Shown: positions 1 to 12,286 of the stretch, piece by piece
How the letters are laid out: each line of letters begins with the position of its first letter
Position numbering within the stretch: position 1 is the stretch's first letter
Source of the DNA: Candidatus Caldarchaeales archaeon
GTDB lineage: Archaea; Thermoproteota; Nitrososphaeria_A; Caldarchaeales; Wolframiiraptoraceae
Length of the DNA stretch: 13,119 nucleotides
Assembly: GCA_039630055.1 (NCBI GenBank)
Contig: JBCNVN010000031.1
Span: forward strand, 1 to 13,119
Direction: 5' to 3'
Notes under the pieces: generated by a model
Database searches by the model: none
The model's input: only the letters and a program-made list of their open reading frames with translations
Told to the model about the DNA's origin: nothing
Translations under genes and position numbers: made by a program

Positions 1-476
1 AGGTAGGGAAGCTTCCTCAATCCTATCGTATCTTTCGAGATAAAGCTATTCCCTCTCAGAGTTACGAGCTTTACTCTTACCTCGTCGTCTATATGGGGTG
101 AAAAATGATGATCTAACCGTTGAATTATCTTCTGTCCAGGTGATATGAGAAAAGAGTGTTCTAGTCTTCTCAAACCCTCCGCCCCACTCTCCAAATAGAC
201 TGCGGGGACGGCTACAGAGATTATTCCAGGATTGGTCACTATTAGATAGAGCTGTCTCCTTCCAAATCCATCTATATTCTTACTTAATGAAACATATATT
301 TCGAGTCTTTCGTTAAGTCTCTCCAACTCGTACTGGAGCCGTCTATTGGCTTCCTGCATGAACAAGCTTTGGAGACTCTGCATGTAGAGAAACAAAGGTA
401 TTATTATCGTAAAGACTATGCTTAAAGCTATCGCCGTACCTATTATGGCCGATATACCTTTACGTCTATTCCTCAA
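1..476 (-). CDS. Archaeal type IV pilin-like protein with class III signal peptide (partial, runs off left edge; not in ORF track)
   Basis: TTG at 476, 1 nt after the stop of the upstream gene and preceded by AGGTGAT SD. Manual translation is open to the edge: MRNRRKG|ISAIIGTAIALSIVFTIIIPLFLY...ELERLNERLEI...LYLIVTNPG...VKLVTLRGNSF. It shows a basic leader, KG cleavage site, hydrophobic helix and pilin-type beta motifs. Confidence 0.85.
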   Translation of the reverse strand, partial: MRNRRKGISAIIGTAIALSIVFTIIIPLFLYMQSLQSLFMQEANRRLQYELERLNERLEIYVSLSKNIDGFGRRQLYLIVTNPGIISVAVPAVYLESGAEGLRRLEHSFLISPGQKIIQRLDHHFSPHIDDEVRVKLVTLRGNSFISKDTIGLRKLPY

Positions 477-477
477 C

Positions 478-1701
478 CTAATCACCTGCAGCCACCGTCC
501 TCGTCGTCGTAACAGTTACAATTGTCGTAGTGGTAACTAAGGTCGTAGCAGTCGTCGTTACCGTTTCTGTAATAGTTTTTGTCTCTGTAACTAGTGGAGA
601 AATATCTGTGATATTCATCACAACTCTAAAGACATCGCTAATCAAAGGGTTTGAGTCAAGTGCTACACTATATTCTTCCCATATACCTATTCCACTACCC
701 AAGGCTACCTCTTTTACACTACTACCTTTAGCGATAAGCCTATCGAAGCAGTCATATATCTTCACATCTACTCTATAGATCCCATCATCATTATGAAAAG
801 CTTTAGCGAAAACTTCTATAACTCTATTGTTGAAAGAATTCCAGAGAAGCTTTACGAAATCTACGTATGCTGTCCTATCTCTTCCAAGATACCATCTATT
901 CTGTACTATGGTCCAGTTGGGGTCCTCTATATTCAGAAAGACCTCGGCAGGATATCTTAATCCACCTGGTGAATCGGTCTCAATAATCTGGTCCATATCC
1001 GACATGCTGGGCAGGACTCTACTACCTTCAGCAGATCTTCCCGTGTAATCTCTAACGGTGACATGAACTTTAACATCTTTCAAGGTTGATGCTTTTGAGA
1101 GTCTTAGTTTAACCATTCTAGATAGAGCCCCTTCTTGATCTTCTTCTACAGGATCAACAAAGTCGACCCAGATCCAGTTTGATTGGATAGGACAGAAGCC
1201 TGAGAGGCCTAGACCTATCCTTTGAACGGGAAATGAAGCTACTCTAAATAGTGCAACATCTGAGGTGGGATTGATCAGCTCTGGATTGGATGGGTCGTAT
1301 AATTTCTTTGGGATATAGTGTACCTTTAATACTATTATATCATCTTCTCTACATAGAGGACACTCATATGAGATTTTCTCTAGCTCACCTATATCTAGTG
1401 TGGTTATCTCTCTCACCCCTGAATCCCATACAGGTGTTCCATTATTCAATACGATGAGCCTGAATATTACGACAGGTTCTTTACCTATATTCCTCATATA
1501 TGCATCTCTATGGAATACGTAGTCTGCAGATATCAATGACCGGAGTACTAGTGATTCTGCATTAACTTCTTCCAGAGACTTCAATCTGTATATTGCTGCG
1601 TAACCAGATAGGAGACCCCATAGGAAGAAACCTATCCCAATAACTATAGCCGTTACTATTGCAATAGTTAGAAGATTACTCTGCCCATACCTTTTCACCA
1701 A
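478..1701 (-). CDS. Large minor pilin/adhesin-like protein, class III signal peptide, CPxC motif, Thr-rich C-terminal tail
   Basis: ORF track gives 478..1719. The GAGGTGA SD (about 1713-1707) favours a start at TTG 1701 or GTG 1698. The sequence reads KRYG|QSNLLTIAIVTAIVIGIGFFLWGLL and ends TETKTITETVTTTATTLVTTTTIVTVTTTRTV. Confidence 0.75.
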   Translation of the reverse strand: MVKRYGQSNLLTIAIVTAIVIGIGFFLWGLLSGYAAIYRLKSLEEVNAESLVLRSLISADYVFHRDAYMRNIGKEPVVIFRLIVLNNGTPVWDSGVREITTLDIGELEKISYECPLCREDDIIVLKVHYIPKKLYDPSNPELINPTSDVALFRVASFPVQRIGLGLSGFCPIQSNWIWVDFVDPVEEDQEGALSRMVKLRLSKASTLKDVKVHVTVRDYTGRSAEGSRVLPSMSDMDQIIETDSPGGLRYPAEVFLNIEDPNWTIVQNRWYLGRDRTAYVDFVKLLWNSFNNRVIEVFAKAFHNDDGIYRVDVKIYDCFDRLIAKGSSVKEVALGSGIGIWEEYSVALDSNPLISDVFRVVMNITDISPLVTETKTITETVTTTATTLVTTTTIVTVTTTRTVAAGD

Positions 1702-1711
1702 TCTGGTCACC

Positions 1712-2867
1712 TCATCCAATTTCTGCTATACTTGTTTCAACATAATATATCTGGTCAAAGCTTACGGGTGAGGATAAACCGATAAAGGTTGTTATACTAT
1801 ACATGCCCGGCATCACATTAATGGTACTTGAAGCACTTTGAAGTATATCTTTATTACAATTTCTTAATACTATAGAGACTCTGTATATTCCTTCTTCTCC
1901 TGCTCCAAGCTCAATCATCACCGAGTAGACGTTTTTATCTCTCTCAAACCACTGGAGATGTATCCCGCTAACATGGATCTTGCGGGGTATTCCATCAAAT
2001 AACCATGATCCTTGAATCATTGGCCATTCAGAGGATACTGTGATTAGGAAGGGTACTTTGATTCCAGCATATTGTCCTGTGATCGGTATATCGTTATGGG
2101 TAGGTATCGTAACTATCCTAGAGCCTGAACCCTGTCTACCACCAACAATCTCTTGAGCTCTTACAATTATTTCAACTTCACCTGATTGAGAGGCGAATAC
2201 AGGTCTGACATAGATCTTATTCGTTGAGTAGATTTCACCAGCTTCTACATCTGTTATAGGATCGACCTTGTCGACTAAGACCCAGCTCTGTGATAATGGA
2301 CATATAGGGGGTGGAACCGTTCCCACTGGCTTAACTATCTTAATTTCAACATATAACATGTCGTTGAGAGATAATAGAGGCTGTTCTTCATTGTATGAGG
2401 CTGAAGAGATATACCAAACTCTATAAACTAGGGTATCTCCTCTTTGACATTGTGGACAAGTGGGAGCCTCTAGGGTACTACTATTCCCGATACCTAGTTT
2501 CGTAAGATTTCCAAAACCTGTAGAAGGTATGCTACCGTATAATACATTTTCTGCTGAGAGTAACTCTATCCTAGTTATCGTTAAATCTATAGGTTGTTTT
2601 GCAATATTTCTAACAGTTATCTCTGCATGTTCTACACCATCTGTTTCAGTATAGTTTACAGCTTCTATAAGTAATAATCCTCTAAGAAGCTGAATATTTC
2701 TATCAGTCTCTTCTGTTAAATCCAAAGTTGTATTAGAGAATAGCCCAGCGGAGATACCCATTAAGAATAATCCTAAAATGAGTACAAGTGGTGCTATCAC
2801 GGCCGCCTCTACGACCGTAATACCTCTCCTCTCTTTAGATGAGCTCTTTGCCTTCTTTAAACCTCAT
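1712..2867 (-). CDS. Large minor pilin-like protein with TadE-like N-terminus; paralog of 478-1701; apparent +1 frameshift in the first 10 codons
   Basis: The ORF track starts at GTG 2800, but the frame stays open upstream as ...KSSSKERRG|ITVVEAAVIAPLVLILGLFLMG with no in-frame start codon. An ATG at 2867, 25 nt below a TATA box, is one base out of frame. Confidence 0.75.
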
Positions 2868-2892
2868 TATACCAATAAATTATTATTCAAAG

Positions 2893-2907
2893 TATATAAA
2901 ATTTTCG
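2893..2907 (-). promoter_or_regulatory. BRE + TATA box for the minor-pilin operon
   Basis: Minus strand reads CGAAAAT-TTTATATA, ending 25 nt before ATG 2867, which is leaderless geometry. Confidence 0.65.
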
Positions 2908-3128
2908 ATTTGAGCCGTAAAAGTCACATCATTATAAAAGCTTCAATCGTATTATTCAGGAATAAGTTAGAAGAACCATCATTAACCTTATCTTTCAGCC
3001 ATTTTTAATTGAGGTAGAGAACCTGTATTCATTGCAGAACGAGAAGGGATTATGTGATTATTAAAAACAATAGAAATAAGAATAGATGATATCTAGATAG
3101 ACACTTATAGTTTACAGAGTATCCATCT

Positions 3129-3497
3129 CTAGTCTAGTAAATCTTTCAGTTTTTCTACTGCATCTTTTACATCCATAATTAATAATCCGATCTTTGCCTT
3201 GGGGCTCATAAGCACTACCAGCGATGCCTTCTTTCCAGCATAAAGGATCGAGCCGCCTTTATCTGTTAAGAGTATAAGATAGTTAAGCTTACCCAAAGCT
3301 ACCTGTTCTGATACCCTCTCAACTATGCTCTGAAGTGCTGAGATCGCCGCTGAAGCCCGTTCTTCATCTATTCCAGCAGGCAAGTTACTCGATATCATTA
3401 ATCCATCGGCACTTATAATCGCCGTACCAGTTACATCTGGATTACCCTTAGTGAGCCCACTTATTACAGCTTGTAATCTTTCAGCACGAGTAGACAC
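3129..3497 (-). CDS. mglB: Roadblock/LC7 (MglB-like) protein, about 122 aa
   Basis: Motifs VTGTAIISADGLMISS, DEERASAAISAL, LGKLNYLIL and AKIGLLIMDVK are typical Roadblock. The start is revised from 3572 to GTG 3497, which follows a GAGGTGG SD. Confidence 0.9.
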   Translation of the reverse strand: MSTRAERLQAVISGLTKGNPDVTGTAIISADGLMISSNLPAGIDEERASAAISALQSIVERVSEQVALGKLNYLILLTDKGGSILYAGKKASLVVLMSPKAKIGLLIMDVKDAVEKLKDLLD

Positions 3498-3580
3498 ACC
3501 TTCCCACCTCTGAAATAATTTACATACATTATTATATATGCTTGCTGGTCTAATCTTATTAAAACCTTCCATGATGGTTA

Positions 3581-4164
3581 TCAGCCTCTTCCCAGAAGTT
3601 CTTCATATACTCGCTTCATTTTCCTATAAGTTTCTTCATCAATCTTTTTTCTTTCAATAGTTTCTCCAGCTTGGCCATTCTCTCACTTATTGTCGACCTG
3701 AATATATTGGATGCAAAGACTTCTTCAGCTTCAGCCTCCTTCTTCAATTCTTTCTCAACAAGACTCTGAGCAGTAGTTGCTAGATGATAAAATATCTGCT
3801 CTGCATTAATGTAGGTGCTACTGGTAAGTAATGCGTGGATATCGGATGCGATTTCCAAGACGTATGGGCCTGTTAATATCTTTTCACCTATCTTGACGGC
3901 GGGAATACCGTTTATCCCAAACCTAGTCTTCATATCTTCTTCATAGTTTTTAAGAGTTGTCCAGATCTCGAATTCAAGCTCTTCGCTTTTGCCTAAAGTC
4001 GATGGAAGAGATATTCTAACCGTCGTTACAGCATGGGCTGGCCAAATATCCTTTGAGGAAAATTTCGACCTATCCTTTAGATCTCTAATTAATCCATTCA
4101 GAATTCTTAAAACTTTATTAGATGTTTCGTCTTCCGATGTATAGAACGTTATTTTGTATGGCAT
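3581..4164 (-). CDS. Thioredoxin-superfamily-like protein lacking CxxC, with a probable SHOCT-like C-terminus across a -1 frameshift
   Basis: ORF 3616..4164 has the N-terminal strand-helix YKITFYTSEDETSNKVLRIL and the cis-Pro-type motif FGINGIPAVKIG. Adding one A in the A6 run (3645-3650) gives KLEKLLKEKKIDEETYRKMKRVYEELLGRG, stopping at 3581. Confidence 0.55.
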
Positions 4165-4186
4165 GAGTATTTAATGTCATCAGATG

Positions 4187-4200
4187 TTTTTAAACTTTAT
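4187..4200 (-). promoter_or_regulatory. BRE/TATA for the 4164 gene
   Basis: Minus strand reads ATAAAG-TTTAAAAA, ending 22 nt before ATG 4164. Confidence 0.5.
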
Positions 4201-4218
4201 TCATTGAGTGCTGCAGAA

Positions 4219-6021
4219 TTATCTTCCCACAATCTCTTTAAGTTTGACATTCATAGAGTCGACAAATATTCTTCCATCTTCTCTCAACTGTTTTAAAGCC
4301 TCTACGAGTACATCTTTCGGCAAAGGTATCTTAACAAATATCTGATAGTATGGTGCCGTCCCATTATTCGATCTCAATAACTCTACAATATAGTCGACTG
4401 CGGTTCTAACCTTTTCTATAGAGACCTCTCTAGGTTTAGTAATAACAACTGGCATATATACTTCCTCTACTCTTATGCCCATCTCTCTAATGAATCTCTC
4501 AGGATCTGTATAGTAAGAATAAACAACTTTAGCAACTTCATTTACTCCTTCAATGCCTTTGCTCACCATCCACTCCAACACAGCTTTCCTCTTCATCAAT
4601 TCTCTGACTACATCAATCTTCTTCTTCCCCCATCTCAGAGCAATCTGTTCAAGTATGATGCTCTTCTCAATATCAAACTTAAAAGTATCTGTTAATGGAT
4701 CCCACTCACCTATTAGTTCATACTTTTCATAATCTGATATCTCCCAAACATATCTCATCCTTCTTCCAAATGTCATACCTTTAACCGGTCTTGGAAGTAG
4801 AGTTCTCTCAACGAGACAGAGTACATCCATCAAAGGGATATGGCTAGGAGGTATATTCATCGGAGGACTTATCAGCCTCTTAACGGCGGTCTCTATACTC
4901 TCTGCGTGAACTGTGGAAAGTCCACCATGACCTGTAGCGATGGCTTGGAATAAGACGAATGCTTCTTCTCCTCTTATCTCTCCAACTATCAGATAGTCTG
5001 GACGATATCTTAAACTCATCCTAACCAAGTCGTATAGGGTTATCTGACCTATCTTAGCACCTATCCCGTAACTTTCACGTGTAACAAATCTCACCCAGTT
5101 CTCTGTAGGCATGTTCAATTCAGCGGTCTCTTCACATGTTATTATCTTCATTCTCGGCTTTATGAAGCATGAGAGAGCGTTTAGGAGAGTCGTCTTTCCG
5201 CTTCCCGTCGCTCCAGCTACCATGATGTTTGCCTTATTCTCTAAGAGTATCCAGAAATATGCTGCAAGCTCAGTACTCATAATATTATTCTGTAGTAATT
5301 CAACTATGCTGAAAGGTCTCTCTCTAAACTTCCTTATAGTGAAGGTTGATCCTCTTGGAGAGATCTCTTCTCTAAATGTTGCTGCAAGCCTATGCTTACC
5401 ATATATCATAGCATCAAGCATTGGGAAGGCTGAAGAGATATGCTTCCCAGCCTTATGAGCCAGCTGAATTATAAAATCATCCAATGCTGCTCTATCTATG
5501 AATGTTATGTTTGTAGGCATGCTTTCATAATCTCTATGCCAGACATATATAGGTACATTTACCCCATCACATGAGATATCTTCAATCCTATAGTCTTCCA
5601 TAATCACATTCAACAGACCGAATCCCAGCATATCTCTCTCAAGATGGTAGAAGAGCTTCTTCTTAGAATTCTCATCAACTACACCTATACCTTTACCATA
5701 CTTATTCAACAATTTTTCAGCAGAAGATATCAGCATCTTCTTAACTTCTTCTTCCTCTCCAACGGTAGGCGGCTCAAGCTCTTTCGATAAAAAATCTTTC
5801 AACTTCTTTAGAGTATTTTTTTCAGCTTCATTTAACTCTACTTCTCTAACGAAGTATACTGGCTCGAGTACTATTCCAGGTTTAGCGGCTATGACTACCT
5901 CGGCCAAGCCTTCTCTCACTGGATACCGTTGAAGAACTTCATAATCTGATGGTAGAGGATCGACTTTAACTCCAACATCTTCTTTAGGTTTCTCTTCATC
6001 CTTCTTCTTAAACAATGGCAT
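4219..6021 (-). CDS. Type IV pilus/type II secretion assembly ATPase (archaeal VirB11/FlaI/TadA/AapE-like) with C-terminal extension
   Basis: Walker A GATGSGKTT, Asp box TCEETAEL, Walker B RPDYLIVGEIRG, His box GHGGLSTVHA, plus IEDISCDG and GSTFTIRKF. An AGGAGAGG SD lies upstream. Confidence 0.96.
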   Translation of the reverse strand: MPLFKKKDEEKPKEDVGVKVDPLPSDYEVLQRYPVREGLAEVVIAAKPGIVLEPVYFVREVELNEAEKNTLKKLKDFLSKELEPPTVGEEEEVKKMLISSAEKLLNKYGKGIGVVDENSKKKLFYHLERDMLGFGLLNVIMEDYRIEDISCDGVNVPIYVWHRDYESMPTNITFIDRAALDDFIIQLAHKAGKHISSAFPMLDAMIYGKHRLAATFREEISPRGSTFTIRKFRERPFSIVELLQNNIMSTELAAYFWILLENKANIMVAGATGSGKTTLLNALSCFIKPRMKIITCEETAELNMPTENWVRFVTRESYGIGAKIGQITLYDLVRMSLRYRPDYLIVGEIRGEEAFVLFQAIATGHGGLSTVHAESIETAVKRLISPPMNIPPSHIPLMDVLCLVERTLLPRPVKGMTFGRRMRYVWEISDYEKYELIGEWDPLTDTFKFDIEKSIILEQIALRWGKKKIDVVRELMKRKAVLEWMVSKGIEGVNEVAKVVYSYYTDPERFIREMGIRVEEVYMPVVITKPREVSIEKVRTAVDYIVELLRSNNGTAPYYQIFVKIPLPKDVLVEALKQLREDGRIFVDSMNVKLKEIVGR

Positions 6022-6189
6022 TTTAATGATCCTCTCCTATCCTTAAAATATACTATTTAATCGCTCTTAAATTTCTTTCTCTTAAGTAGGACTAGAGTTA
6101 CAAATATAAAAAATGTAGAGCGTCTCCCCATAGGGTTTTTATATACTGTAGTTCTCTGACATTAGAGATTGCTATTATGTAGTTTGTTC

Positions 6190-6442
6190 ATCATGCTGGC
6201 CAATATTTTGATGTTTAAGACTTTATGATAAGTTCTCTAATATTCATAGTTGGATTCATGATTCAAGAGTATTGGTCTCTGTGAAACATCTATCTATACA
6301 GAGTCTAGAAGATATACGAAGCCAATCTTCAGATAGATTAGGTGACCATTAGTGATTACTGTCAGCCTTAGAGATTCATCAGCTTCTCAATGATTCTAAA
6401 GGTTTGATAAATTCATTCTAAAACCTTGAAGAATTTGGCCAT
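6190..6442 (-). pseudogene. Possible heavily decayed ArsR/SmtB-family regulator
   Basis: Fragments appear in ArsR order across frames and stops: MAKFFKVL..FRIIEKL, NGHLIYLKIGFV, QYS.IMNP..IRELII, KILAS. The resemblance is weak. Confidence 0.2.
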
Positions 6443-6452
6443 TCGGCTTTTA

Positions 6453-6468
6453 CGAAAATATTTTAAGG
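6453..6468 (+). promoter_or_regulatory. BRE/TATA for the Roadblock-GTPase operon
   Basis: CGAAAATA-TTTTAAGG ends 24 nt before ATG 6493. Confidence 0.55.
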
Positions 6469-6492
6469 GAGAGTGTGATTAATTAAGTTAAG

Positions 6493-7098
6493 ATGGATGG
6501 ATTTTTAGGGGCAGTATACAATATTTTGACAAATCCATTGATGACCTTTTTAATTTTCATTCTTATCATAGTTGCTGTAGCATTATCTATTCTTTCATTT
6601 GTCAATACATTTTTATTATCAAAGAAGATACCCTCTATGATTTCTTCCAAGATTCCTACAACTCCATCCCCAGAACTACCTCAAAGAGTATCTAAACCTA
6701 CCCCATCCATACCTCCATCAAAGACCGCTACAGAATTCATTAGGATTACAAGTGGATTAGAATCTCTAGAAGAGATCTCTAGCGCTCTCACCGTTAATTC
6801 TATCTTCCTATTCAATTTAACAGGTATGTCGATAGAATCTTATAATGTGAAAGAAGAAGAAAAATTGGCCGCTGCCTTAGCAGATATAGTTGCAACTTTA
6901 AAGAAGTCTGGTTTTCCAACGGAGTCCATAAGTATAAGAGATGGAGTTCAAGGCCTCATACTGTTTGTTTCACAGATAGGAGAGATGGAAGTATATGCAC
7001 TCCTCCTAGGAGGGCCAGATGTTTCAGTAGATGTTGGAGAGGCTAGAGAGCTCTTAAAGAATTATGTATCATCAATGATTAAGAGGAAGGGTGAATAG
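6493..7098 (+). CDS. Single-pass membrane protein with Pro/Ser/Thr linker and C-terminal divergent Roadblock-like domain
   Basis: TM segment MTFLIFILIIVAVALSILSFVNTFLL is followed by KK and the linker IPTTPSPELPQRVSKPTPSIPPS. The C-terminal domain VNSIFLFNLTGMSIES..EEEKLAAALADIV..TESISIRD..LILFV parallels the Roadblock pattern. Confidence 0.65.
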   Translation: MDGFLGAVYNILTNPLMTFLIFILIIVAVALSILSFVNTFLLSKKIPSMISSKIPTTPSPELPQRVSKPTPSIPPSKTATEFIRITSGLESLEEISSALTVNSIFLFNLTGMSIESYNVKEEEKLAAALADIVATLKKSGFPTESISIRDGVQGLILFVSQIGEMEVYALLLGGPDVSVDVGEARELLKNYVSSMIKRKGE

Positions 7099-7100
7099 TT

Positions 7101-7463
7101 GTGGCCACGGCTTACGAGGCTCTTCAAGTACTTGTGGAGAGCATAATGGTTAGCAGTAAAGGATGGGTTGAGGCTGTAGCCGTAGTCTCACAAGATGGCA
7201 CTCCTGTAACATATAATACAAATGTTGAATTTAATCCAGATTATATCGCAGCCACTACCGCGGCTATTGCTGGGGCAACATCAGCCGTCGTAGAGCTACT
7301 AAACTCTAAAGGTTTCGATAGAATAGATGTTCAGTTAAAAGATAAAAGATACTTGTTGATTAGAAATTATAAAGACCAGTATATCATCTGTGTTACTAGA
7401 CCGAACCCTAACCTAGGATTTGTAAACTTGATACTTGAAGCATTCCTATCTGGTAGGTCATGA
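7101..7463 (+). CDS. mglB: Roadblock/LC7 (MglB-like) protein
   Basis: Motifs VEAVAVVSQDGTPV, PDYIAATTAAI, FDRIDVQLKD and PNLGFV. GTG start after a GGGTGA SD; ATGA overlap with the GTPase gene. Confidence 0.9.
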   Translation: MATAYEALQVLVESIMVSSKGWVEAVAVVSQDGTPVTYNTNVEFNPDYIAATTAAIAGATSAVVELLNSKGFDRIDVQLKDKRYLLIRNYKDQYIICVTRPNPNLGFVNLILEAFLSGRS

Positions 7464-8023
7464 AGATACTTAAGATACTCATTACAGGACCTTACAATGC
7501 TGGTAAAACAACTCTAGTAAAAACTCTCTGTGCTAATGCGCTTACAACCGATAAACGTACAATATCTGATGAATTGGTCAAACCAACTACAACTGTTGCG
7601 TTAGACTTCGGGTTAGTAAATATTAAAGGAACATTGGTAAGATTGTTCGGTACACCTGGTCAGAGCAGGTTCTCATTTATGTGGCGTACTCTCTCGATAG
7701 GAATAGACGGATACATATTCATGGTAGATAGTAGTGATCCATTAAGCCTAGATGATGCTCTCCACATGTATATGTTTTTTAAATCTATGCATCCTAAAAC
7801 AGTTCACGTAATCTCAGCTAACAAATATGATAAAGAGAAGAAGTTAAGTATAGATGCTATCAGATCTGCTCTTAAAGCCGAAAAGGATATCCCAATATAT
7901 CCGACAGTGGCCTATGATCTAGATAGCGCTACAAGACTATTAGAACTCTTAATAGATATGATCAAAAGTAGAGTAATGATCCAGCTTAAGGAGTATGAAC
8001 AAAAGAGACCACCTAAAGTATAG
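7460..8023 (+). CDS. mglA: MglA/CvnD-like small Ras-superfamily GTPase
   Basis: G1 GPYNAGKTT, G2 region TTTVALDFG, G3 LFGTPGQSRF, G4 NKYD. Directly downstream of a Roadblock gene. Confidence 0.92.
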   Translation: MKILKILITGPYNAGKTTLVKTLCANALTTDKRTISDELVKPTTTVALDFGLVNIKGTLVRLFGTPGQSRFSFMWRTLSIGIDGYIFMVDSSDPLSLDDALHMYMFFKSMHPKTVHVISANKYDKEKKLSIDAIRSALKAEKDIPIYPTVAYDLDSATRLLELLIDMIKSRVMIQLKEYEQKRPPKV

Positions 8024-8051
8024 ATTAGACATAGTTGTTTTGATAGTTTTT

Positions 8052-8352
8052 CTATCGAGATTCTCTAAAGCCTTCTTGAATTGGGCCATAACGTATTTTG
8101 AATATTTTCAGCTTTGGTATAGGTCTAGATTCCCTATAATTAATCTTTTGTGATGATTGGTTGTGGAGGGCTTCTCGCTTCCTCTATGAATTGTTCAAGC
8201 TTTTCAGGTTTTGATTGTTAGAATAGTTTAACTCTTCCATCTTGGATGTTTCTCAAATGTCCAGCGATGCTTAGGAGGCGTCTTCTATAGCCGACCCTCT
8301 GGATTCTTCCTCTAACCGGGAACCCAAAGACTTTAATCTCTTCTCTCACCAA
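8052..8352 (-). pseudogene. acyP: Acylphosphatase pseudogene
   Basis: Manual translation gives VRGRIQRVGYRRRLLSIAGHLRNIQDGRVKLF*QSKPEKLEQFIEEARSPPQP, then after a frameshift near 8140 FKIRYGPIQEGF. It matches GxVQxVGxR and GxVxNxxDGxV, with an internal stop at 8218-8220 and an apparent short deletion. Confidence 0.8.
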
Positions 8353-8463
8353 AAGTTCTTATAGATTCTCCAGGTTACCCGATTACATCATTTTTAATAG
8401 TTCATCTATTAACGATAGAAGTTTTATGTTATTTTATATCGTATTCTGGGTTTCCAGTCTGGA

Positions 8464-8479
8464 TTATAAATCTTATATA
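8464..8479 (+). promoter_or_regulatory. TATA box for the platform-protein gene
   Basis: TTATAAAT-CTTATATA ends 20-23 nt before the tandem ATGs at 8500 and 8503. Confidence 0.5.
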
Positions 8480-8499
8480 CTGGGAGAAGGTTTGATAGA

Positions 8500-10278
8500 A
8501 TGATGGGCTTTCTCGATAGTTTTAGTGGGTTCTCATATTCAAACTTTAGAGGTTTAGGTTTGTACATTCTAAAACTATTTCCAAATATCTCTGCTAAGCT
8601 GGAGAGCTCTGGAAAAAGGATTCATCCTGAAGCATATGCTTCTATAGTGGCTGGAGTAACCGTCATCAGTCTAATATTTGCATCTATCTTATCGTTACTT
8701 CTCTTTCTATTCACATCTAACATACTAGTTTCCTTGATACTATTTATTATTCCAGGATTAGCTTTTATGATAGGCGTTCTCTATCCCTATGGTGAAGCTT
8801 CCTCAGTAGCCTCAGTTCTTGAGAGCGAGATACCGTATGCCGCAACCTACCTAGCAGTCATGGCCACAGGAGGCATCGCTCCATACACTAGCTTAAGCCG
8901 TATCTCTAAAGGTGAGCTTATGCCTAATATTGCTCGGGCGGCGAAGAATGCAGAGATAAGGGTTAAGATCGGTGGGGTGGACCCCGTATCTGCAATGGAG
9001 GATATGGCTAAGGGTGTTCCCTCAAAAGAATATAGAGACCTGATTATGGGTTATGCTTCAACATTGAGGAGCGGTGGAGATGTTGTACACTTTCTGATAA
9101 GGAAGACTGAGCAGATATTTGATTCTAGGATGGGGAAGATGAGGATAATAGGGGAGAGGATGGGGATGTTGATGGAAGCTTATGCTGCTATAACTATGAT
9201 GCTCTCTCTGATCATATACATTATCTATATTGTTTCTAGGGCTATGCCGAGCGAGTATCTCGTTTTACCTTCCGAGCAGTTCGTCATTCTAGCATACTTT
9301 ATCATGCCATTACTAGCTCTAATATTTCTCTATCTAGCAGATATTACTCAGCCTAAATACCCGATGACGGATGTTAGACCATACAGGATATTCTATATGA
9401 CGGTTCCATTCTCTTTTATATTCTTGATGTTATTCGTTGCACCATTCTTCCTAGATGTTTTAAGATTTACCCCACCATTCAATCTTACAAGTTCCCTCAT
9501 AGTCGAGCTTAGGAGTAGGATGGGTCTAGTTCAAGGATACGAGTCTTCAATCGCTCTAAGCATATTCTTCATGATATTGTTTGCTCCAGGGATGGTCTTC
9601 TATGAGAGATATGGTAAAGAGAGCATGAGCATCCTTCACGGGATGACCCTCTTCTTGAGAGACCTCACAGAAGCTAGGAAGACAGGTATGAGCCCTGAAA
9701 AATGTATCATCACTCTCAAGGATAGGCCTTACGCTGGATTCAGCAAGCATCTTAAGATTATTGCTAAGCAGATCGGTTGGGGAGAGTCTCTAAGAAAGGT
9801 TTACCAAGATTTCACAAAACGTGTCCATGGATGGATGAGTAGGGCAAGCCTATACATATTGATAGATGCTATAGATGTTGGAGGAGGAGCTCCAGAAACA
9901 TTTGATGTCTTATCTACATTTATGGAGAATCTTGAAGAGGTTGAGAGGCAGAAGAGGTCCACCCTACTACCACTGATGATAATCCCCTATATGGCCGCTA
10001 TAATGCTAGTAGTAGTCGTAGTAATACTGGTGAGCTTCATGCGTAACTTACTCCAGATCGCCAGGATCTACATCTCTCTCGCAGAGTTCATCCACTTCTT
10101 CCTTCCACCAGTAATCCTCATAGCTGTTATAAGTGGGCTCGTAGCAGGAAAAGTCTCCTCTGGGGCTATAGCTGCAGGGTTCAAGCATGCATTCATATTA
10201 TCGATCGTATCACTTATAGCTGTATGGTTATCTGGGACAATCTCGATACAGATATTCTTAACACCTATGATGACATAG
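8500..10278 (+). CDS. Type IV pilus membrane platform protein (TadC/GspF/FlaJ/AapF-like, two T2SSF domains)
   Basis: Domain 1: ESEIPYAATYLAVMATGG..GVDPVSAM..PSKEYRDLIMGYASTLRSGGD. Domain 2: FLRDLTEARKTGMSP..IGWG..DAIDVGGG. Multiple TM helices. Confidence 0.94.
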   Translation: MMGFLDSFSGFSYSNFRGLGLYILKLFPNISAKLESSGKRIHPEAYASIVAGVTVISLIFASILSLLLFLFTSNILVSLILFIIPGLAFMIGVLYPYGEASSVASVLESEIPYAATYLAVMATGGIAPYTSLSRISKGELMPNIARAAKNAEIRVKIGGVDPVSAMEDMAKGVPSKEYRDLIMGYASTLRSGGDVVHFLIRKTEQIFDSRMGKMRIIGERMGMLMEAYAAITMMLSLIIYIIYIVSRAMPSEYLVLPSEQFVILAYFIMPLLALIFLYLADITQPKYPMTDVRPYRIFYMTVPFSFIFLMLFVAPFFLDVLRFTPPFNLTSSLIVELRSRMGLVQGYESSIALSIFFMILFAPGMVFYERYGKESMSILHGMTLFLRDLTEARKTGMSPEKCIITLKDRPYAGFSKHLKIIAKQIGWGESLRKVYQDFTKRVHGWMSRASLYILIDAIDVGGGAPETFDVLSTFMENLEEVERQKRSTLLPLMIIPYMAAIMLVVVVVILVSFMRNLLQIARIYISLAEFIHFFLPPVILIAVISGLVAGKVSSGAIAAGFKHAFILSIVSLIAVWLSGTISIQIFLTPMMT

Positions 10279-10450
10279 TGGTGAGGCTAGATCTTTCCAA
10301 CAATGTATTCGTATAAATGATCACTTACGACTTCTAAATTCTTAAAACATACTCTAAACTTTTGTGTATATCTCAGTTCCATGATTTCTAGCTACTTATA
10401 ATGCTCTATCTTCAATATATAGTATTACTATGATGATTTAAGATGGCTTT

Positions 10451-10495
10451 TCTATCTTTCTGTAGAAGGTCGAGGATCTCTCCTTTTAAACTTAA
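10451..10495 (-). pseudogene. Possible short N-terminal remnant of a DUF3782/PaRep-like gene
   Basis: LSLKGEILDLLQKDR resembles the start of the remnant at 11605 (KLKQEFIELLEK). It is very short. Confidence 0.2.
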
Positions 10496-10681
10496 AGGTC
10501 TTTCTTATTATCAGCTTGCCATCTATTTAATTAAAGTTTTACCATGATTGGTCCTAAGACTTGAAGATACATTTCTATAGATCTAAGATGTTAAGAGGGT
10601 CGAGCATGGCCAGAGAAAGCTTCCTAGAAGCTAATAAGATTAGAGCTTATCTTAACAATATCTATACGGGTAAACCTTTCT

Positions 10682-10696
10682 CAAAACATTTATAAG
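10682..10696 (+). promoter_or_regulatory. BRE/TATA for the short pilin gene
   Basis: CAAAACA-TTTATAAG ends 23 nt before GTG 10720. Confidence 0.65.
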
Positions 10697-10719
10697 AAAC
10701 ACTGAACATATAATAGACA

Positions 10720-11178
10720 GTGAGGTTTAAGGGTAAGTCTGGTATAAGCCCCGTGGTTGCAACGGTGATCCTCGTAGCTGTATCGATAGTTTTAGCGATC
10801 GCAGTAGCATTCTGGGCATCAGGACTAGTAGGAATATTTACAAGATTCGAGAAATTAGAGATAGTCTCAGCCGTAATGATAAACGCGGATACTTTCCAAG
10901 TAATAATAAGAAACACAGGATCAGCAGATACATCAATAATACGGGTCGTTGCTCAAGGACAAGCTCATTATTTGTTCGATCCACCGCGACCTATAATGGT
11001 AGGACAAGCACTTCAATGTGATATAGTTACAAATGCAGTGCCCCCTGGGATAACTGTAGAATTATCATTCTATACTTCGGGAGGAAAGACCTATCCAACC
11101 GCTGTATTATCAACACTTGGACAGGGACAGGGACCATGGAATCCACAAATACGAGGTGTTTACTGCGACCGACGGTAG
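10720..11178 (+). CDS. Archaeal type IV pilin, probable major pilin
   Basis: MRFKGKSG|ISPVVATVILVAVSIVLAIAVAFW is a canonical archaeal class III signal. It also has FEKLEI, IRNTGS and YTSGGKTYP. It has its own promoter and a downstream T-rich tract. Confidence 0.92.
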   Translation: MRFKGKSGISPVVATVILVAVSIVLAIAVAFWASGLVGIFTRFEKLEIVSAVMINADTFQVIIRNTGSADTSIIRVVAQGQAHYLFDPPRPIMVGQALQCDIVTNAVPPGITVELSFYTSGGKTYPTAVLSTLGQGQGPWNPQIRGVYCDRR

Positions 11179-11250
11179 GGCGGAGTAGGGAATCAAACAA
11201 CTACGAGGACCTAAAGAAGAATATGATCTGTAATTAAAATTTGTCCGGCA

Positions 11251-11282
11251 TTCTTTTAATCTCCTTTTTCTATGTATTTTTT
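11251..11282 (+). terminator. Putative oligo-T archaeal terminator after the pilin gene
   Basis: TTCTTTTAATCTCCTTTTTCTATGTATTTTTT lies about 70-100 nt after the stop codon. Confidence 0.4.
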
Positions 11283-11604
11283 AACTTGATATAATTCAAA
11301 TTGGTAATCATTTATCCGTATCGGTCCATGTAGATTGTTCAAAATATAGACGAGTTTAACCGAATATTTCTATTGTAGATAAGGCTTTAAATTAAATCTT
11401 TGAAAATAGGTGGATGGAGAAACTTGCCCATGAATGTAAAAAGATGGTCTTACCGAGAAAGTGGATTAAACTATTTAGGGCTAACATGGTGCATTTTAGA
11501 GGAAAAACTTAAAAAGTGAAAAATTCTACAATTTCTCAACTATCTTTAGTCAACTTTTCAACCTTTTAAATATGATCTCTCTATTCCATCCTTTGGAGAA
11601 CAGT

Positions 11605-11813
11605 ATGGCTGAGAAGCTCAAACAAGAGTTCATAGAACTATTAGAGAAATATGTAGAATTCTGTTACATTATTGTAAGATATCTAGGATTAACAGAGATA
11701 TTGAAGAGACCTGATGAATAGAAGGGAGACAGATAGAAGTATCAGAAGTGCAGAGGAGACTCTTGAAAGAGTAGAGGAAATTGTTTAAATATTTAGAAAG
11801 GCTATGGGATGAC
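11605..11813 (+). pseudogene. N-terminal remnant of DUF3782/PaRep-type coiled-coil (PD-(D/E)XK-associated) protein
   Basis: MAEKLKQEFIELLEKYVEFCYIIVRYLGLTEILKRPDE* resembles the family start LKxEFLxLLEKDxEFRYAVAGYLGLxEILKRLD. Broken heptads follow (EVQRRLLKE*RKLFKYLERLWDD). A TTTTAAATA box lies upstream. Confidence 0.6.
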
Positions 11814-11816
11814 ACA

Positions 11817-12069
11817 ATAAACTCTGGCAAGATTGTTAGAAGCTATAACTTCTTAGAGATTGGAGAAATCATAGAGAATGAGCTAGGAATCAAGATAGAT
11901 CCAATCCTGAAAGACCTAAGAGAATTGACGATCCATTTACACCATACCAAGATGGCCAAATGCTATCAACGCTTCACCCTCAGAACTACATGATTAGGCC
12001 ATGTCTAGAGAACTTGTAGGAAGAGCTGAGAGAGGGGTAAGATGGATAAAGCAGTATTTACGTAGATAG
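11817..12069 (+). pseudogene. HEPN-domain protein pseudogene (5'-truncated)
   Basis: GKIVRSYNFLEIGEIIENELGIKIDPILKDLRELTIH, then after a frameshift YTIPRWPNAINASPSELHD*AMSRELVGRAERGVRWIKQYLRR. This matches the HEPN pattern HnL..LtxHYxxxRYPNA..PxExY..A..AE..W. Confidence 0.7.
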
Positions 12070-12286
12070 TCAAGAAGAAACATGTAGAAGAATAAGAGGA
12101 TTCTCAGCGAATGCTTACAGCTCTGTATAAAGAGACCTAAAGATTGTGAAAGCATGTCTTCTAAGCCTAAGAGCTAGGAGCAGCTAAGTGGAAGATGGCG
12201 ATATAGACTTGATACTCATCGTTGGAGGAGAAGATCTAAACCAGTTGAGGAAAGAGGAAATAGAGATAACTGCAAACCAAACATGA
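12042..12286 (+). pseudogene. Minimal nucleotidyltransferase (MNT) pseudogene
   Basis: LKIVKACLLSLRARSS*VEDGDIDLILIVG is a decayed hhLFGSxARGxxxxxSDhDhhhh motif. ATG 12042 overlaps the end of the HEPN remnant. Several stops are present. Confidence 0.7.

What the first reader, a model, noticed from the sequence alone, without database searches (positions are those of the whole stretch)
1..11178. Archaeal type IV pilus locus with an embedded MglA/MglB-like GTPase switch
Seen in sequence: the pilus ATPase and platform genes, normally adjacent, are separated by an operon encoding a membrane Roadblock-like protein, a Roadblock protein and a small GTPase. A further Roadblock gene lies between the ATPase and the minor pilins. 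Established knowledge: in Myxococcus xanthus MglA (GTPase) and MglB (Roadblock GAP) set the pole at which type IV pili are active, and the well-studied Sulfolobus Aap and Ups pili are not known to use such a switch. Inference: this may be an archaeal pilus whose placement, or whose extension versus retraction by a single ATPase, is controlled by a Ras-like GTPase. That would be a candidate uncharacterised polarity/twitching system, relevant to the origin of Roadblock/longin-GTPase signalling.
Basis: partly seen in the sequence, partly recalled or inferred. Interest (0 to 1): 0.88.

Follow-up and report, generated by a model that had tools for sequence, protein, structure and literature searches.

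The report
Archaeal pilus locus with embedded GTPase switch
A hot-spring archaeon's only type IV pilus gene cluster carries, inside it, the cell's only small Ras-like GTPase and its only Roadblock proteins, an arrangement kept across related genera that suggests, but does not prove, that a GTP switch controls the pilus machine.

Summary
The window is a whole 13.1-kb contig of a 1.54-Mb MAG. It holds a non-archaellum type IV pilus cluster: a T2SSE ATPase, a T2SSF platform protein and four pilin-like genes. Between the divergent ATPase and platform genes sits a tight three-gene operon. It encodes a membrane-anchored protein whose C-terminal domain folds like MglB, a Pfam Roadblock protein, and a small GTPase. 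The GTPase has the GTPGQ G3 motif and the Thr-Thr switch I of MglA-family groups 2-5. A second Roadblock gene and a gene of unknown function follow the ATPase.

- The linkage holds in 15 of 16 GTPase loci of the same family. The 16th has pilin genes alongside.
- The linkage is derived. Sister families have the same pilus with ATPase and platform adjacent and no module (0 of 12 loci). One sister family keeps the module elsewhere, in housekeeping context (0 of 6 linked).
- Comparable linkages occur in two other Thermoproteota lineages and in Actinomycetota type IVa pilus operons.

The MglA/MglB-like identity and a functional tie to the pilus are well supported. Control of polarity, or of extension versus retraction, is untested. 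A complex prediction gave only weak support. I rate it a new variant of a known kind, of moderate to high interest.

The parts
3..485 (-). Pilin-like gene. Its N-terminus carries a class III signal-like motif (RRKG followed by a hydrophobic helix). Its C-terminus runs off the contig end.
   Evidence: translation; weak matches to UpsA and UpsB over the N-terminal part (28.9 and 22.9 bits, far below the cut-offs). Orthologues sit in relatives' pilus loci.
478..1719 (-). Large pilin-like protein (413 aa) with an N-terminal hydrophobic helix after an RYGQ motif and a Thr-rich C-terminal tail. It overlaps the next gene by 8 bases.
   Evidence: No Pfam, NCBIfam or PHROGs match. It is a paralogue of 1712-2800 (cross-hits at 20-28% identity in relatives). 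It is conserved beside the pilus genes in f1, f2 and f4.
1712..2800 (-). Large pilin-like paralogue (362 aa as called). A class III signal-like stretch lies in frame just upstream of the called GTG start, and no standard start codon precedes it.
   Evidence: Most of the 7 orthologues read upstream carry a basic-Gly signal-like motif followed by L/I-T-V/I-V/I-E.
3129..3572 (-). Robl1, a canonical Roadblock/LC7 (MglB-type) protein with the Asp-Gly pair. The true start is probably downstream, since orthologues are 121-128 aa.
   Evidence: PF03259, E 3.5e-10, 39.9 bits against a cut-off of 23; nearest solved chains are the Thorarchaeota Roadblock 7f8m (E 4.2e-12), 9jue and CvnB5 3leq. One search gives the orthologue lengths.
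3616..4164 (-). hyp182, a conserved protein of unknown function. It has an alpha/beta domain with no CxxC motif followed by a long helix. It always lies between the ATPase and Robl1.
   Evidence: 12-row alignment A4. AF2 model mean pLDDT 83.5. No Foldseek match at E <= 0.001; the best compact match is the SasA thioredoxin-like domain 6x61 (probability 0.95, TM 0.51 on the target). The Atlas gives thioredoxin-fold clusters at 0.86-0.88, which are leads only.
4219..6021 (-). Type IV pilus assembly ATPase of the FlaI/TadA/VirB11 superfamily. It is not an archaellum FlaI equivalog.
   Evidence: T2SSE, E 3.7e-34, and PilB3_C. FlaI model 346 bits against a cut-off of 550; BasE 232 against 1000.
6022..6492 (.). 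A 471-bp AT-rich divergent intergenic region between the ATPase operon and the memRobl operon. It is presumably the promoter region; this is an inference.
   Evidence: GC 0.34-0.35; sequence. No promoter tool for archaea was available.
6493..7098 (+). memRobl, a membrane-anchored Roadblock-fold protein. It has an N-terminal TM helix, a disordered Pro/Ser/Thr-rich linker and a C-terminal MglB-like domain (87-201).
   Evidence: By sequence the link is weak.
7101..7463 (+). Robl2, a divergent Roadblock/LC7 protein with Asp32-Gly33 and an invariant C-terminal P-N-x-G signature.
   Evidence: PF03259, 25.9 bits against a cut-off of 23; alignment A3; best solved chain is the 9jue Roadblock, E 1.3e-4.
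7460..8023 (+). Small GTPase of the MglA family, of the group 2-5 type. Motifs: P-loop GPYNAGKT, switch I Thr-Thr, G3 GTPGQ, G4 NKYD.
   Evidence: the profile matches T. thermophilus MglA 3t12 at E 2.1e-15 over its full length, tied with 8oun at 1.8e-15. The motif definitions come from PMC4316618.
8218..8352 (-). 44-aa relic of an acylphosphatase-like gene, inside the 476-bp gap between the GTPase and platform genes.
   Evidence: ORF; an intact 284-aa gene lies at the same place in a congener (L022:6382-7236); that gene matches acylphosphatase models at E 2.4e-17.
8500..10278 (+). Polytopic platform protein (TadC/FlaJ/UpsF-like) with two T2SSF domains.
   Evidence: T2SSF, E 1.9e-23, 2 stretches. 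UpsF 71.6 bits against 400, BasF 57.8 against 1300, ArlJ 42.9 against 550; all are below their cut-offs.
10720..11178 (+). Pilin with an archaellin/type IV pilin N-terminal domain. It is the candidate major pilin.
   Evidence: TIGR02537, 23.1 bits against a cut-off of 20; UpsA 32 bits against 130. It lies beside the platform gene in f1, f2 and f4 loci.

Best explanation
The contig is the single type IV pilus (non-archaellum, TACK 'clade 4'-like) gene cluster of a Caldarchaeales (Aigarchaeota) archaeon close to Wolframiiraptoraceae. An older, self-contained three-gene module was recruited into this cluster. The module encodes a membrane-anchored Roadblock protein, a soluble Roadblock protein and an MglA-family GTPase of the GTPGQ type.

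Proposed mechanism:
1. memRobl and Robl2 form a Roadblock heterodimer. The memRobl helix holds it at the cytoplasmic face of the membrane.
2. The heterodimer binds the GTPase and regulates it.
3. The nucleotide state of the GTPase then gates the pilus motor, either through the ATPase hexamer or through the cytoplasmic domains of the platform protein. This decides whether, and possibly where, pili are made.
4. Robl1, together with hyp182 and encoded behind the ATPase, is a second, canonical MglB-type partner. It would act as a GAP or as an ATPase-side adaptor.

Shown here: gene content, motifs, the fold of memRobl, operon tightness, the conservation and phyletic pattern of the linkage, and independent recurrences of it.

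Inferred: the heterodimer, the cytoplasmic orientation, binding to the GTPase (only weak in-silico support), any contact with the ATPase or platform, and the output.
For: Family assignments
- Pfam and NCBIfam assign the ATPase, platform, pilin, two Roadblocks and the GTPase.
- A prepilin peptidase is present elsewhere in the genome.

GTPase motifs
- G3 is G-x-P-G-Q, with Gly in place of Asp, in 44 of 49 homologues examined. All f1 rows have it.
- In alignment A1 (17 rows) G64, P66, G67, Q68, T44 and T45 are invariant.
- PMC4316618 (passages) defines MglA groups 2-5 by GTPGQ plus Thr in place of the Arg finger. It says their coupled MglBs carry an Asp-Gly pair. Robl2 has D32-G33 and Robl1 has one too.

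memRobl fold.

Operon coupling
- The window junctions are a 2-base gap and a 4-base overlap.
- In genera g3 and g5 the GTPase hit ends 5-27 bases from the platform hit (L026, L030, L032, L033).

Conservation
- 15 of 16 f1 GTPase loci hold the ATPase and/or the platform. The 16th, an 8.8-kb contig, holds pilins and Robl1.
- Two congeners, 97% and 84% complete, matched neither the GTPase nor the ATPase query.
- The only Roadblocks and the only Ras-like GTPase of the genome sit here.

Recurrences elsewhere
- L113 (family f38) reads, on one strand: platform, five pilin-like genes, memRobl-like, Robl2, GTPase, pilin-like. The ATPase is divergent.
- L123 (f28) reads: ATPase, platform, Roadblock, Ras-family GTPase. 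A GAPGQ GTPase and another Roadblock lie nearby.
- 18 of 30 Actinomycetota loci show T2SSE hits downstream of the GTPase.
- Two of those were annotated as PilB/Roadblock/PATAN/GTPase/PilB/PilT/PilC and as (Roadblock hit by tblastn only)/PATAN/GTPase/PilB/PilT/PilC.
- The GTPase tree puts these cases in three separate clades.

Complex prediction: weak support
- Input was memRobl 87-201 plus Robl2 plus the GTPase as partner.
- Score 0.38 (runs 0.38, 0.38, 0.00), best of 3 controls 0.00.
- The mark was reached by 58 of 80 solved complexes and 2 of 110 mismatched pairs. At 0.60 or under it was reached by only 7 of those 80 and by both mismatches.
- The runs agree in at least 79% of contacts, and the partner's pLDDT is at least 72.
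- MglA-MglB complexes are solved, so this pass may reflect likeness rather than binding.
Against: - The pilus does not need the module. Orthologous ATPase/platform/pilin loci in f2, f3 and f4 have no Roadblock or GTPase hit (0 of 12 loci). No GTPase was found in f3 or f4 (0 of 10 genomes; none).
- The module does not need the pilus locus. In f2 it lies among proteasome, tRNA-endonuclease and Nop genes (0 of 6 loci linked). In the one f2 genome where both lie on one contig it is about 620 kb from the ATPase. In Thermoproteaceae it lies by Rpb6 and thermosome genes.
- Of 17 further Thermoproteota GTPase loci, only 2 are pilus-linked.
- Genus g4 keeps memRobl, Robl2 and platform, but profile A1 found no GTPase in 7 genomes that are 93-99% complete.
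- The kin in f1 are not independent observations.
- The complex score is weak, and one of the three runs gave 0.00.
- No interaction with the ATPase or platform was tested, and there are no expression data.
Confidence: 0.6

Rival explanations
1. The Roadblock pair memRobl/Robl2 is itself a cytoplasmic accessory or adaptor of the pilus machine, comparable to the accessory rings of other type IV filament systems. The GTPase is a dispensable, lineage-specific modulator. The 'switch' is therefore peripheral to how the pilus works.
For: - Genus g4 (L041, L042) has memRobl, Robl2 and platform with no GTPase found.
- Several genus g2 loci (L027, L028, L031; partial in L053) carry a second memRobl/Robl2 pair directly upstream of the platform without a GTPase, in addition to the pair that has one.
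- A Roadblock pair directly precedes the platform gene, or is separated from it only by the GTPase gene, in genera g1, g2, g4 and g5 and in one of the two g3 genomes.
- PMC4858521 notes Roadblock genes, not GTPases, in varied archaeal T4P loci.
Against: - In f2 and in Thermoproteaceae the Roadblock-like genes travel with the GTPase and away from the pilus. The ancestral partner of this Roadblock pair is therefore the GTPase, not the pilus.
- The GTPase is retained in 16 of 24 f1 genomes.
Confidence: 0.2
2. The module is a general cellular switch, for example for membrane or envelope processes. Its position in the pilus cluster reflects gene-order drift or co-regulation only, with no direct action on the pilus.
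For: - The module stands alone in housekeeping neighbourhoods in f2 and in Thermoproteaceae.
- 15 of 17 other Thermoproteota loci are not pilus-linked.
- PMC4316618 found no conserved neighbours for archaeal MglA or Rup groups.
Against: - Tight operon coupling to the platform gene.
- Conservation through four genera.
- Neither gene was found in two congeners.
- At least three phylogenetically separate linkages to type IV pilus genes, including bacterial ones.
Confidence: 0.12
3. The GTPase and the Roadblock-fold proteins work like the SR-beta/SRX pair. They would form a membrane receptor that helps target or insert prepilins or the platform protein, rather than a motor switch.
For: - Pfam SRPRB matches the GTPase weakly (25.6 bits against a cut-off of 25).
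- One partner is membrane-anchored.
- That SRX has a Roadblock/longin-like fold is recalled, not tested here.
Against: - The G3 motif is of the MglA type and lacks the Asp that PMC4316618 says is highly conserved in GTPases other than MglA.
- The best solved relatives include MglA over its full length.
- No SRP component lies in the locus.
Confidence: 0.04

Closest known systems
MglA/MglB polarity module of Myxococcus xanthus and Thermus thermophilus (MglA group 1 with an MglB homodimer)
   Same: - A small Ras-superfamily GTPase is encoded beside a Roadblock/LC7 protein.
- The G3 motif lacks the usual Asp.
- Profile A1 matches T. thermophilus MglA at E 2.1e-15.
- The memRobl domain's best fold match is M. 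xanthus MglB.
- In M. xanthus the module controls type IV pili (abstracts of PMC7668184 and PMC9481161, seen in listings).
   Different: - G3 is GTPGQ, not TVPGQ.
- Switch I has Thr-Thr in place of the intrinsic Arg finger.
- There are three Roadblock-fold proteins, one of them with a transmembrane anchor, instead of one soluble homodimer.
- The genes lie inside the pilus operon.
- The host is an archaeon with a single pilus ATPase and no PilT.
MglA groups 2-5 of Wuichet and Sogaard-Andersen 2014, including the actinobacterial conservon CvnB/CvnD and the archaeal group 4
   Same: - The GTPGQ G3 motif.
- Thr at the Arg-finger position.
- A coupled Roadblock with an Asp-Gly pair.
- Robl1 matches CvnB5 3leq at E 3.4e-6.
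   Different: - That paper reports no conserved neighbours for archaeal group 4, and places group 4 in Euryarchaeota plus one korarchaeote.
- Here the host is a Caldarchaeales member and the neighbours are pilus genes.
- There is no histidine kinase and no CvnC.
- I did not place the window GTPase in their tree.
Crenarchaeal type IV pili: Ups, Aap and the bindosome of Sulfolobales; clade 4 of Makarova et al. 2016
   Same: - A FlaI-like ATPase, a TadC/FlaJ-like platform and class III signal-peptide pilins.
- Weak best matches to the UpsA, UpsF, BasE and BasF models.
- Extra large pilin-like proteins, as described for subclade 4A.
   Different: - All equivalog scores are far below their cut-offs, so this is none of those named systems.
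- Roadblock genes are present, whereas the PF03259 control search did not ring in S. acidocaldarius.
- A small GTPase is present, which that paper does not mention among T4P-linked proteins. Its only 'GTPase' is an FtsZ-family one.
Ragulator-Rag (LAMTOR Roadblock heterodimers anchoring Rag GTPases on a membrane)
   Same: This is a resemblance only. Roadblock-fold proteins, one of them membrane-tethered, are encoded with a small GTPase. Rag and LAMTOR chains appear among the Foldseek matches of memRobl.
   Different: - The tether is a transmembrane helix, not a lipidated LAMTOR1.
- The GTPase has no fused Roadblock domain.
- There is no evidence of homology beyond the shared fold.
- The heterodimer is inferred, not shown.

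Membership tests
MglA family, groups 2-5 (Wuichet and Sogaard-Andersen 2014) | The G3 motif is GTPGQ, with the canonical Asp replaced. | tested here: met
   The window has R-L-F-G-T-P-G-Q. G64, P66, G67 and Q68 are invariant in 17 rows. 44 of 49 homologues have G-x-PGQ.
MglA family, groups 2-5 (Wuichet and Sogaard-Andersen 2014) | A Thr stands in place of the group 1 intrinsic Arg finger, next to the G2 Thr. | tested here: met
   T44 and T45 are invariant in A1. The T-T-V/I pattern was picked up in 45 of 49 homologues; in the other 4 the pattern search hit the P-loop instead.
MglA family, groups 2-5 (Wuichet and Sogaard-Andersen 2014) | The GTPase is coupled to an MglB-type Roadblock gene that carries a conserved Asp-Gly pair. 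| tested here: met
   Robl2 overlaps the GTPase gene by 4 bases. In A3, D32 is nearly invariant and G33 is invariant. Robl1 also has an Asp-Gly pair. memRobl keeps only the Gly, G111.
MglA family, groups 2-5 (Wuichet and Sogaard-Andersen 2014) | GTP binding and hydrolysis, stimulated by the Roadblock partner. | not testable with these tools
   The P-loop, NKxD motif and catalytic Gln are present, but activity needs biochemistry. The complex prediction gave only weak support.
MglA group 1 (M. xanthus / T. thermophilus type) | A TVPGQ G3 motif and an intrinsic Arg finger in switch I. | tested here: not met
   The window has GTPGQ and Thr-Thr. It is therefore not a group 1 MglA.
Roadblock/LC7 (PF03259, MglB-like) | A Pfam model score above the gathering cut-off of 23 bits. 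| tested here: met
   Robl1 scores 39.9 bits and Robl2 25.9 bits.
Roadblock/LC7 (PF03259, MglB-like) | Whether memRobl belongs, judged by sequence model and by fold. | tested here: inconclusive
   By sequence it is not a clear member: no Pfam match, hhalign probability 9.6%, and PDB profile E 0.025 to dynein Roadblock chains. By fold it does belong: the predicted alpha-beta-beta-alpha-beta-beta-beta-alpha domain best matches MglB 6hjm at E 8.5e-6.
Archaeal type IV pilus system (non-archaellum) | A T2SSE-family ATPase and a T2SSF-family platform protein in one locus. | tested here: met
Archaeal type IV pilus system (non-archaellum) | Pilins with a class III signal peptide or archaeal pilin N-terminal domain, and a prepilin peptidase in the genome. 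| tested here: met
   TIGR02537 scores 23.1 bits against a cut-off of 20 for 10720-11178. Signal-like motifs are visible in 3-485 and 478-1719. A Peptidase_A24 match of 37.8 bits (cut-off 26.5) lies on contig C12. Cleavage itself was not tested.
Archaellum (FlaI/ArlI, ArlJ equivalogs) | NCBIfam equivalog scores above their cut-offs. | tested here: not met
   FlaI scores 346 against 550 and ArlJ 42.9 against 550.
Ups pilus / bindosome of Sulfolobales | NCBIfam equivalog scores above their cut-offs. | tested here: not met
   UpsA scores 32 against 130, UpsF 71.6 against 400, BasE 232 against 1000 and BasF 57.8 against 1300.

The most novel reading that the evidence does not exclude
In these archaea a membrane-tethered Roadblock heterodimer and an MglA-type GTPase dock directly on the lone pilus motor. 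They would set its mode (assembly versus disassembly) or its site on the cell. That would be a nucleotide switch doing the job that PilB/PilT pairs and polarity modules do in bacteria, and a prokaryotic counterpart of membrane-anchored Roadblock/GTPase platforms such as Ragulator-Rag. The separate recurrences in f28 and in Actinomycetota pilus operons would then mark an unrecognised, widespread class of small-GTPase regulators of type IV filament machines.
Probability: 0.15. Interest if true: 0.85.

Novelty: new variant of a known kind. Interest (0 to 1): 0.62.

Why it matters
Archaeal type IV pili have no PilT-type retraction ATPase. Even so, the Aap pili of Sulfolobus acidocaldarius retract and drive twitching (PMC11178785, title and start of the abstract seen in a listing). 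What switches a single motor between modes is therefore an open question.

This locus offers a concrete and tractable candidate regulator: three small soluble domains and one GTPase from thermophiles. They are suited to binding, GAP and structural assays against the ATPase and the platform.

The locus also gives the archaeal GTPGQ-type MglA relatives a specific genomic partner. The 2014 survey found no conserved neighbours for them.

It further adds a membrane-anchored Roadblock/GTPase pairing in TACK archaea to the discussion of how Roadblock/longin-GTPase signalling arose.

The Actinomycetota operons (Roadblock, PATAN, GTPase, PilB, PilT, PilC) extend published hints that MglA/MglB homologues, PATAN domains and pilus motors go together (bioRxiv 10.1101/2021.06.11.447907, passages).

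Tried and rejected
- RNA genes: there are no tRNA genes and no Rfam family in the window.
- PHROGs gave nothing for the six proteins without a family.
- hyp182 has no convincing fold relative: 0 Foldseek matches at E <= 0.001. The Atlas scores are all below 0.9 and are leads only. I reject any firm naming of it. 'Thioredoxin-like, KaiB/SasA-like' is a lead.
- memRobl could not be tied to Roadblock by sequence alone. Only the predicted fold does that.
- I considered an archaellum, Ups or bindosome identity and rejected it on equivalog scores.
- I considered a Rup/Arf identity for the GTPase, since Pfam's best model is Arf, and rejected it on the G3 motif.
- Expression: no RNA holder was listed for window 3000-10300. 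Three DNA runs of one study hold it or part of it. I laid no reads.
- I did not fetch 7 of the 22 non-f1/f2 Thermoproteota genomes that matched profile A1 (G149, G176, G188, G232, G244, G249, G271). They belong to genera I had already sampled.
The 55 loci are a pattern-limited sample, not a census.
Table S4 of PMC4858521 and Table S2 of PMC4316618 may list comparable loci that I could not see.
- The Wolframiiraptor paper (PMC9246946) has none of the words pili, pilus, motility, GTPase, archaell or roadblock in its main text.

Full report
**What is there**

The window is the whole of contig C25 of a 1.54-Mb, 80-contig assembly that is 92% complete.

On the minus strand, downstream of a 471-bp AT-rich divergent region (6022-6492), lie in order:
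- an ATPase at 4219-6021 (T2SSE, E 3.7e-34; FlaI model 346 bits against a cut-off of 550);
- a 182-aa protein of unknown function at 3616-4164;
- a canonical Roadblock/LC7 protein, Robl1, at 3129-3572 (39.9 bits against a cut-off of 23);
- two paralogous large pilin-like genes at 1712-2800 and 478-1719;
- a small pilin-like gene at 3-485, which is cut by the contig end.

On the plus strand lie:
- memRobl at 6493-7098;
- Robl2 at 7101-7463 (PF03259, 25.9 bits);
- a 187-aa GTPase at 7460-8023 (Arf, E 1.5e-12; small_GTP 49.1 bits against a cut-off of 42.5);
- a 476-bp gap;
- the platform gene at 8500-10278 (two T2SSF stretches);
- a pilin at 10720-11178 with the archaellin/pilin N-terminal domain (23.1 bits against a cut-off of 20).

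A prepilin peptidase gene lies on another contig. There is no tRNA gene and no Rfam family in the window.

In this assembly the only two PF03259 matches, the only PF00025 match, the only T2SSF gene and the only strong T2SSE match are all on this contig.

**The embedded module**

memRobl has no Pfam match, and its profile aligns only weakly to Robl2 (hhalign probability 9.6%, E 0.0034). Its AF2 model (mean pLDDT 81.5) has three parts:
- a long N-terminal helix at 2-50;
- a disordered Pro/Ser/Thr-rich linker at 51-86;
- a confident domain at 87-201 with the order alpha-beta-beta-alpha-beta-beta-beta-alpha.

Foldseek ranks M. xanthus MglB 6hjm first (E 8.5e-6, TM 0.64 on the target). Other Roadblock, LAMTOR and Rag C-terminal chains follow, and 47 matches have E <= 0.001. 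Basic residues follow the hydrophobic helix, so I infer that the Roadblock domain faces the cytoplasm.

The GTPase has a P-loop, a Thr-Thr switch I, a G-T-P-G-Q G3 motif and an NKYD G4 motif. G64, P66, G67, Q68, T44 and T45 are invariant in 17 orthologues. The G-x-PGQ form is found in 44 of 49 homologues.

Passages of PMC4316618 say that MglA groups 2-5 share GTPGQ and a Thr in place of the group 1 Arg finger. They also say that the coupled MglBs share an Asp-Gly pair. Robl2 (D32-G33) and Robl1 have that pair.

A profile of the GTPase matches T. thermophilus MglA 3t12 at E 2.1e-15 over its full length. That is level with an unnamed 'GTP-binding protein', 8oun, and ahead of Arf, Sar and Rab chains.

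So the label 'MglA/MglB-like' is right at the family level. This is not, however, the M. xanthus type, which has TVPGQ and an Arg finger.

**Taxon**

Titled public records with the same architecture or with the closest GTPases are a Candidatus Wolframiiraptor MAG, Calditenuis and 'Archaeon HR02'. The NCBI taxonomy places Wolframiiraptor in Nitrososphaerota. The paper that describes it places it in Caldarchaeales, a synonym of Aigarchaeota (PMC9246946, abstract). I therefore read the host as a Caldarchaeales member close to Wolframiiraptoraceae.

**Comparative evidence**

The GTPase was found in 23 of 41 related genomes. By family the counts are f1 16 of 24, f2 6 of 6, f3 0 of 4 and f4 0 of 6.

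I fetched all 16 f1 loci and all 6 f2 loci and mapped the window's proteins on them by tblastn.
- In f1, 15 of 16 loci hold the ATPase and/or the platform next to the module.
- The 16th is an 8.8-kb contig. It holds Robl1, the module and four pilin-like genes. That genome's ATPase and platform sit together on a separate 3.6-kb contig.
- In genera g3 and g5 the GTPase hit ends 5-27 bases from the platform hit, so memRobl, Robl2, GTPase and platform form one operon.
- In several genus g2 genomes there are two memRobl/Robl2 pairs. One is followed by the GTPase and the other by the platform.
- In genus g4 there is only memRobl, Robl2 and platform, and profile A1 found no GTPase in 7 genomes of g4.
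- Two congeners of the window, 97% and 84% complete, matched neither the GTPase nor the ATPase query.

Orthologous ATPases at 46-62% identity exist in f2, f3 and f4.
- Their 12 loci have no Roadblock or GTPase hit.
- ATPase and platform abut in 9 of them, are separated by pilin genes in 2, and 1 locus is cut short by the contig end.
- In f2 the module, preceded by a 215-218-aa ORF that resembles memRobl only weakly, lies among proteasome, tRNA-intron-endonuclease and Nop genes.
- In the one f2 genome where both lie on one contig, the module is about 620 kb from the ATPase.

So both the pilus and the module are older than their linkage. The linkage is a derived trait of family f1.

**Beyond the order**

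Profile A1 matched 44 of 301 sampled Thermoproteota genomes. I fetched 17 loci from 16 of these genomes, which cover 15 of the 22 that are outside f1 and f2. Two of the 17 loci are pilus-linked.
- L113 (family f38) reads, on one strand: platform, five pilin-like genes, a 216-aa protein with an N-terminal hydrophobic helix, Robl2 (PF03259), GTPase, and a 567-aa pilin-like protein. The ATPase is divergent.
- L123 (f28, genus g114) reads: ATPase, platform, Roadblock (E 8e-14), then a Ras-family GTPase (PF00071, E 3e-40). A GAPGQ-type GTPase and another Roadblock lie within 3 kb.

In Vulcanisaeta the GTPase lies beside Rpb6 and thermosome genes.

Among the titled loci, 18 of 30 Actinomycetota loci show T2SSE hits 1.2-7.5 kb downstream of the GTPase. 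I annotated two of them.
- The Candidatus Geothermocultor locus reads: PilB, Roadblock, DUF4388/PATAN, GTPase, PilB, PilT, PilC, pilin.
- The second reads: (Roadblock by tblastn only), PATAN, GTPase, PilB, PilT, PilC.

An ML tree of 49 GTPases gives the following picture.
- f1 groups with L113, at a moderate support of 80/90.
- f2 is apart.
- L123 sits on a separate long branch.
- The actinobacterial proteins group with Chloroflexota and a cyanobacterium.

The tree is rooted at the midpoint for drawing only, and its long branches are flagged as unsafe. I read it as at least three separate linkages of this GTPase type to type IV pilus genes.

**Complex prediction**

I ran memRobl 87-201, Robl2 and the GTPase (as the scored partner), each with its alignment. 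The result was weak support.
- Score 0.38 (runs 0.38, 0.38 and 0.00) against a best control of 0.00.
- The mark was reached by 58 of 80 solved complexes and 2 of 110 mismatched pairs. At 0.60 or under it was reached by only 7 of those 80 and by both mismatches.
- The runs agree in at least 79% of contacts, and the partner's pLDDT is at least 72.
- MglA-MglB complexes are solved, so this may be likeness recalled by the model.

It raises my belief in the triad only slightly. It says nothing about the motor.

**Interpretation**

The simplest reading is that a pre-existing membrane-tethered Roadblock/GTPase switch was captured by the pilus operon in this family, and that it now regulates the pilus machine.

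The points against a necessary role are real. The pilus exists without the module. The module exists without pilus linkage. Genus g4 keeps the Roadblock pair without the GTPase.

The g4 and g2 patterns raise a rival reading: the Roadblock pair is the machine-side adaptor and the GTPase is a modulator.

Robl1 and hyp182 were found only in f1 genera that also have the GTPase. PF03259 found only the weak Robl2 match in one g4 genome and nothing in another. This fits a role for Robl1 as the GTPase's canonical partner, but it does not show it.

Polarity, twitching and extension versus retraction remain untested.

**Literature**

[quoted passage not shown] Its only 'GTPase' is of the FtsZ family (passages).
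- PMC4316618 reports no conserved neighbours for archaeal group 4 MglA or for group 2 Rup (passages).
- PMC10933270, on Asgard Roadblock proteins and GTPases, does not mention pili (word search).
- PMC9246946 mentions none of the relevant words.
- A preprint notes that MglA/MglB homologues are often encoded near PATAN proteins, and that PATAN regulators bind PilB1 (passages).
- Searches found no description of a small GTPase embedded in an archaeal pilus operon.
- Supplementary tables were closed, so earlier tabulation cannot be excluded.

**Verdict**

This is a new variant of a known kind: an MglA/MglB-type switch wired into an archaeal type IV pilus operon, with a membrane-anchored Roadblock.
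- Confidence that the module is functionally tied to the pilus: about 0.6 for the stated mechanism, or about 0.8 if the adaptor rival is counted as well.
- Interest: 0.62.

Noticed in passing
L022:1242-4499(-); also L023, L028, L031 and G015:C90: In several relatives, including congeners, the orthologous pilus ATPase is a single ORF of about 990-1130 aa. It is interrupted after about residue 362 by an intein (Intein_splicing, E 1e-15, plus LAGLIDADG_3). The window's ATPase (600 aa) has no intein.
   Followed up: partly
window 8218-8352(-); L022:6382-7236(-): The 476-bp gap between the GTPase and platform genes holds a 44-aa relic of an acylphosphatase-like gene. A congener has an intact 284-aa gene at the same place, with an acylphosphatase-like domain (E 2.4e-17) and a tail of short repeats rich in Glu, Phe, Arg, Asp and Tyr.
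   Followed up: partly
window 2800-2860(-): The class III signal-like stretch of the large pilin-like gene at 1712-2800 lies in frame upstream of its called GTG start, and no ATG, GTG or TTG precedes it. An ATG lies one frame off. This could be a one-base indel in the assembly, a real frameshift, or an unusual start codon. Orthologues have an intact signal with Glu at +5.
   Followed up: partly
window 3616-3680(-): The window's hyp182 lacks about 15 residues of a C-terminal motif that 10 of its 11 aligned orthologues carry. I recall this motif as looking like a SHOCT-type motif; that was not tested.
   Followed up: no
L073:6329-15694; L077:8336-15075; 16 further loci: Uncultured Actinomycetota have type IVa pilus operons that contain a Roadblock protein, a DUF4388/PATAN protein and a GTPGQ-type GTPase beside PilB, PilT, PilC and a pilin.
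   Followed up: partly
L123:151-8938: In another Thermoproteota lineage (f28, genus g114) a Roadblock gene and a true Ras-family GTPase (PF00071, E 3e-40) follow the platform gene directly. After them comes a 263-aa protein that starts with a Cys-x-x-Cys motif and has no Pfam match. A second GTPase/Roadblock pair lies nearby.
   Followed up: partly
G015:C11:5714-6169, G019:C19:13632-14087, G011:C19:16225-16683, G017:C6:33767-34228: Genera g5 and g3 have a second, more distant copy of the GTPase domain (40-41% identity) inside open frames of 403-419 aa. That is a fused or extended form, and I did not examine it.
   Followed up: no
window 11179-12436: About 1.25 kb has no ORF longer than 70 aa, no Rfam match and no tRNA gene, at GC of about 0.36. 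A gap of similar size lies between the same flanking genes in a congener (L021). Its content is unexplained.
   Followed up: no
window 12437-13117(-): This is the C-terminal part of a saccharopine-dehydrogenase-fold enzyme. It resembles carboxynorspermidine synthase (93 bits against a cut-off of 800) and is cut by the contig end. It is not part of the pilus locus.
   Followed up: no
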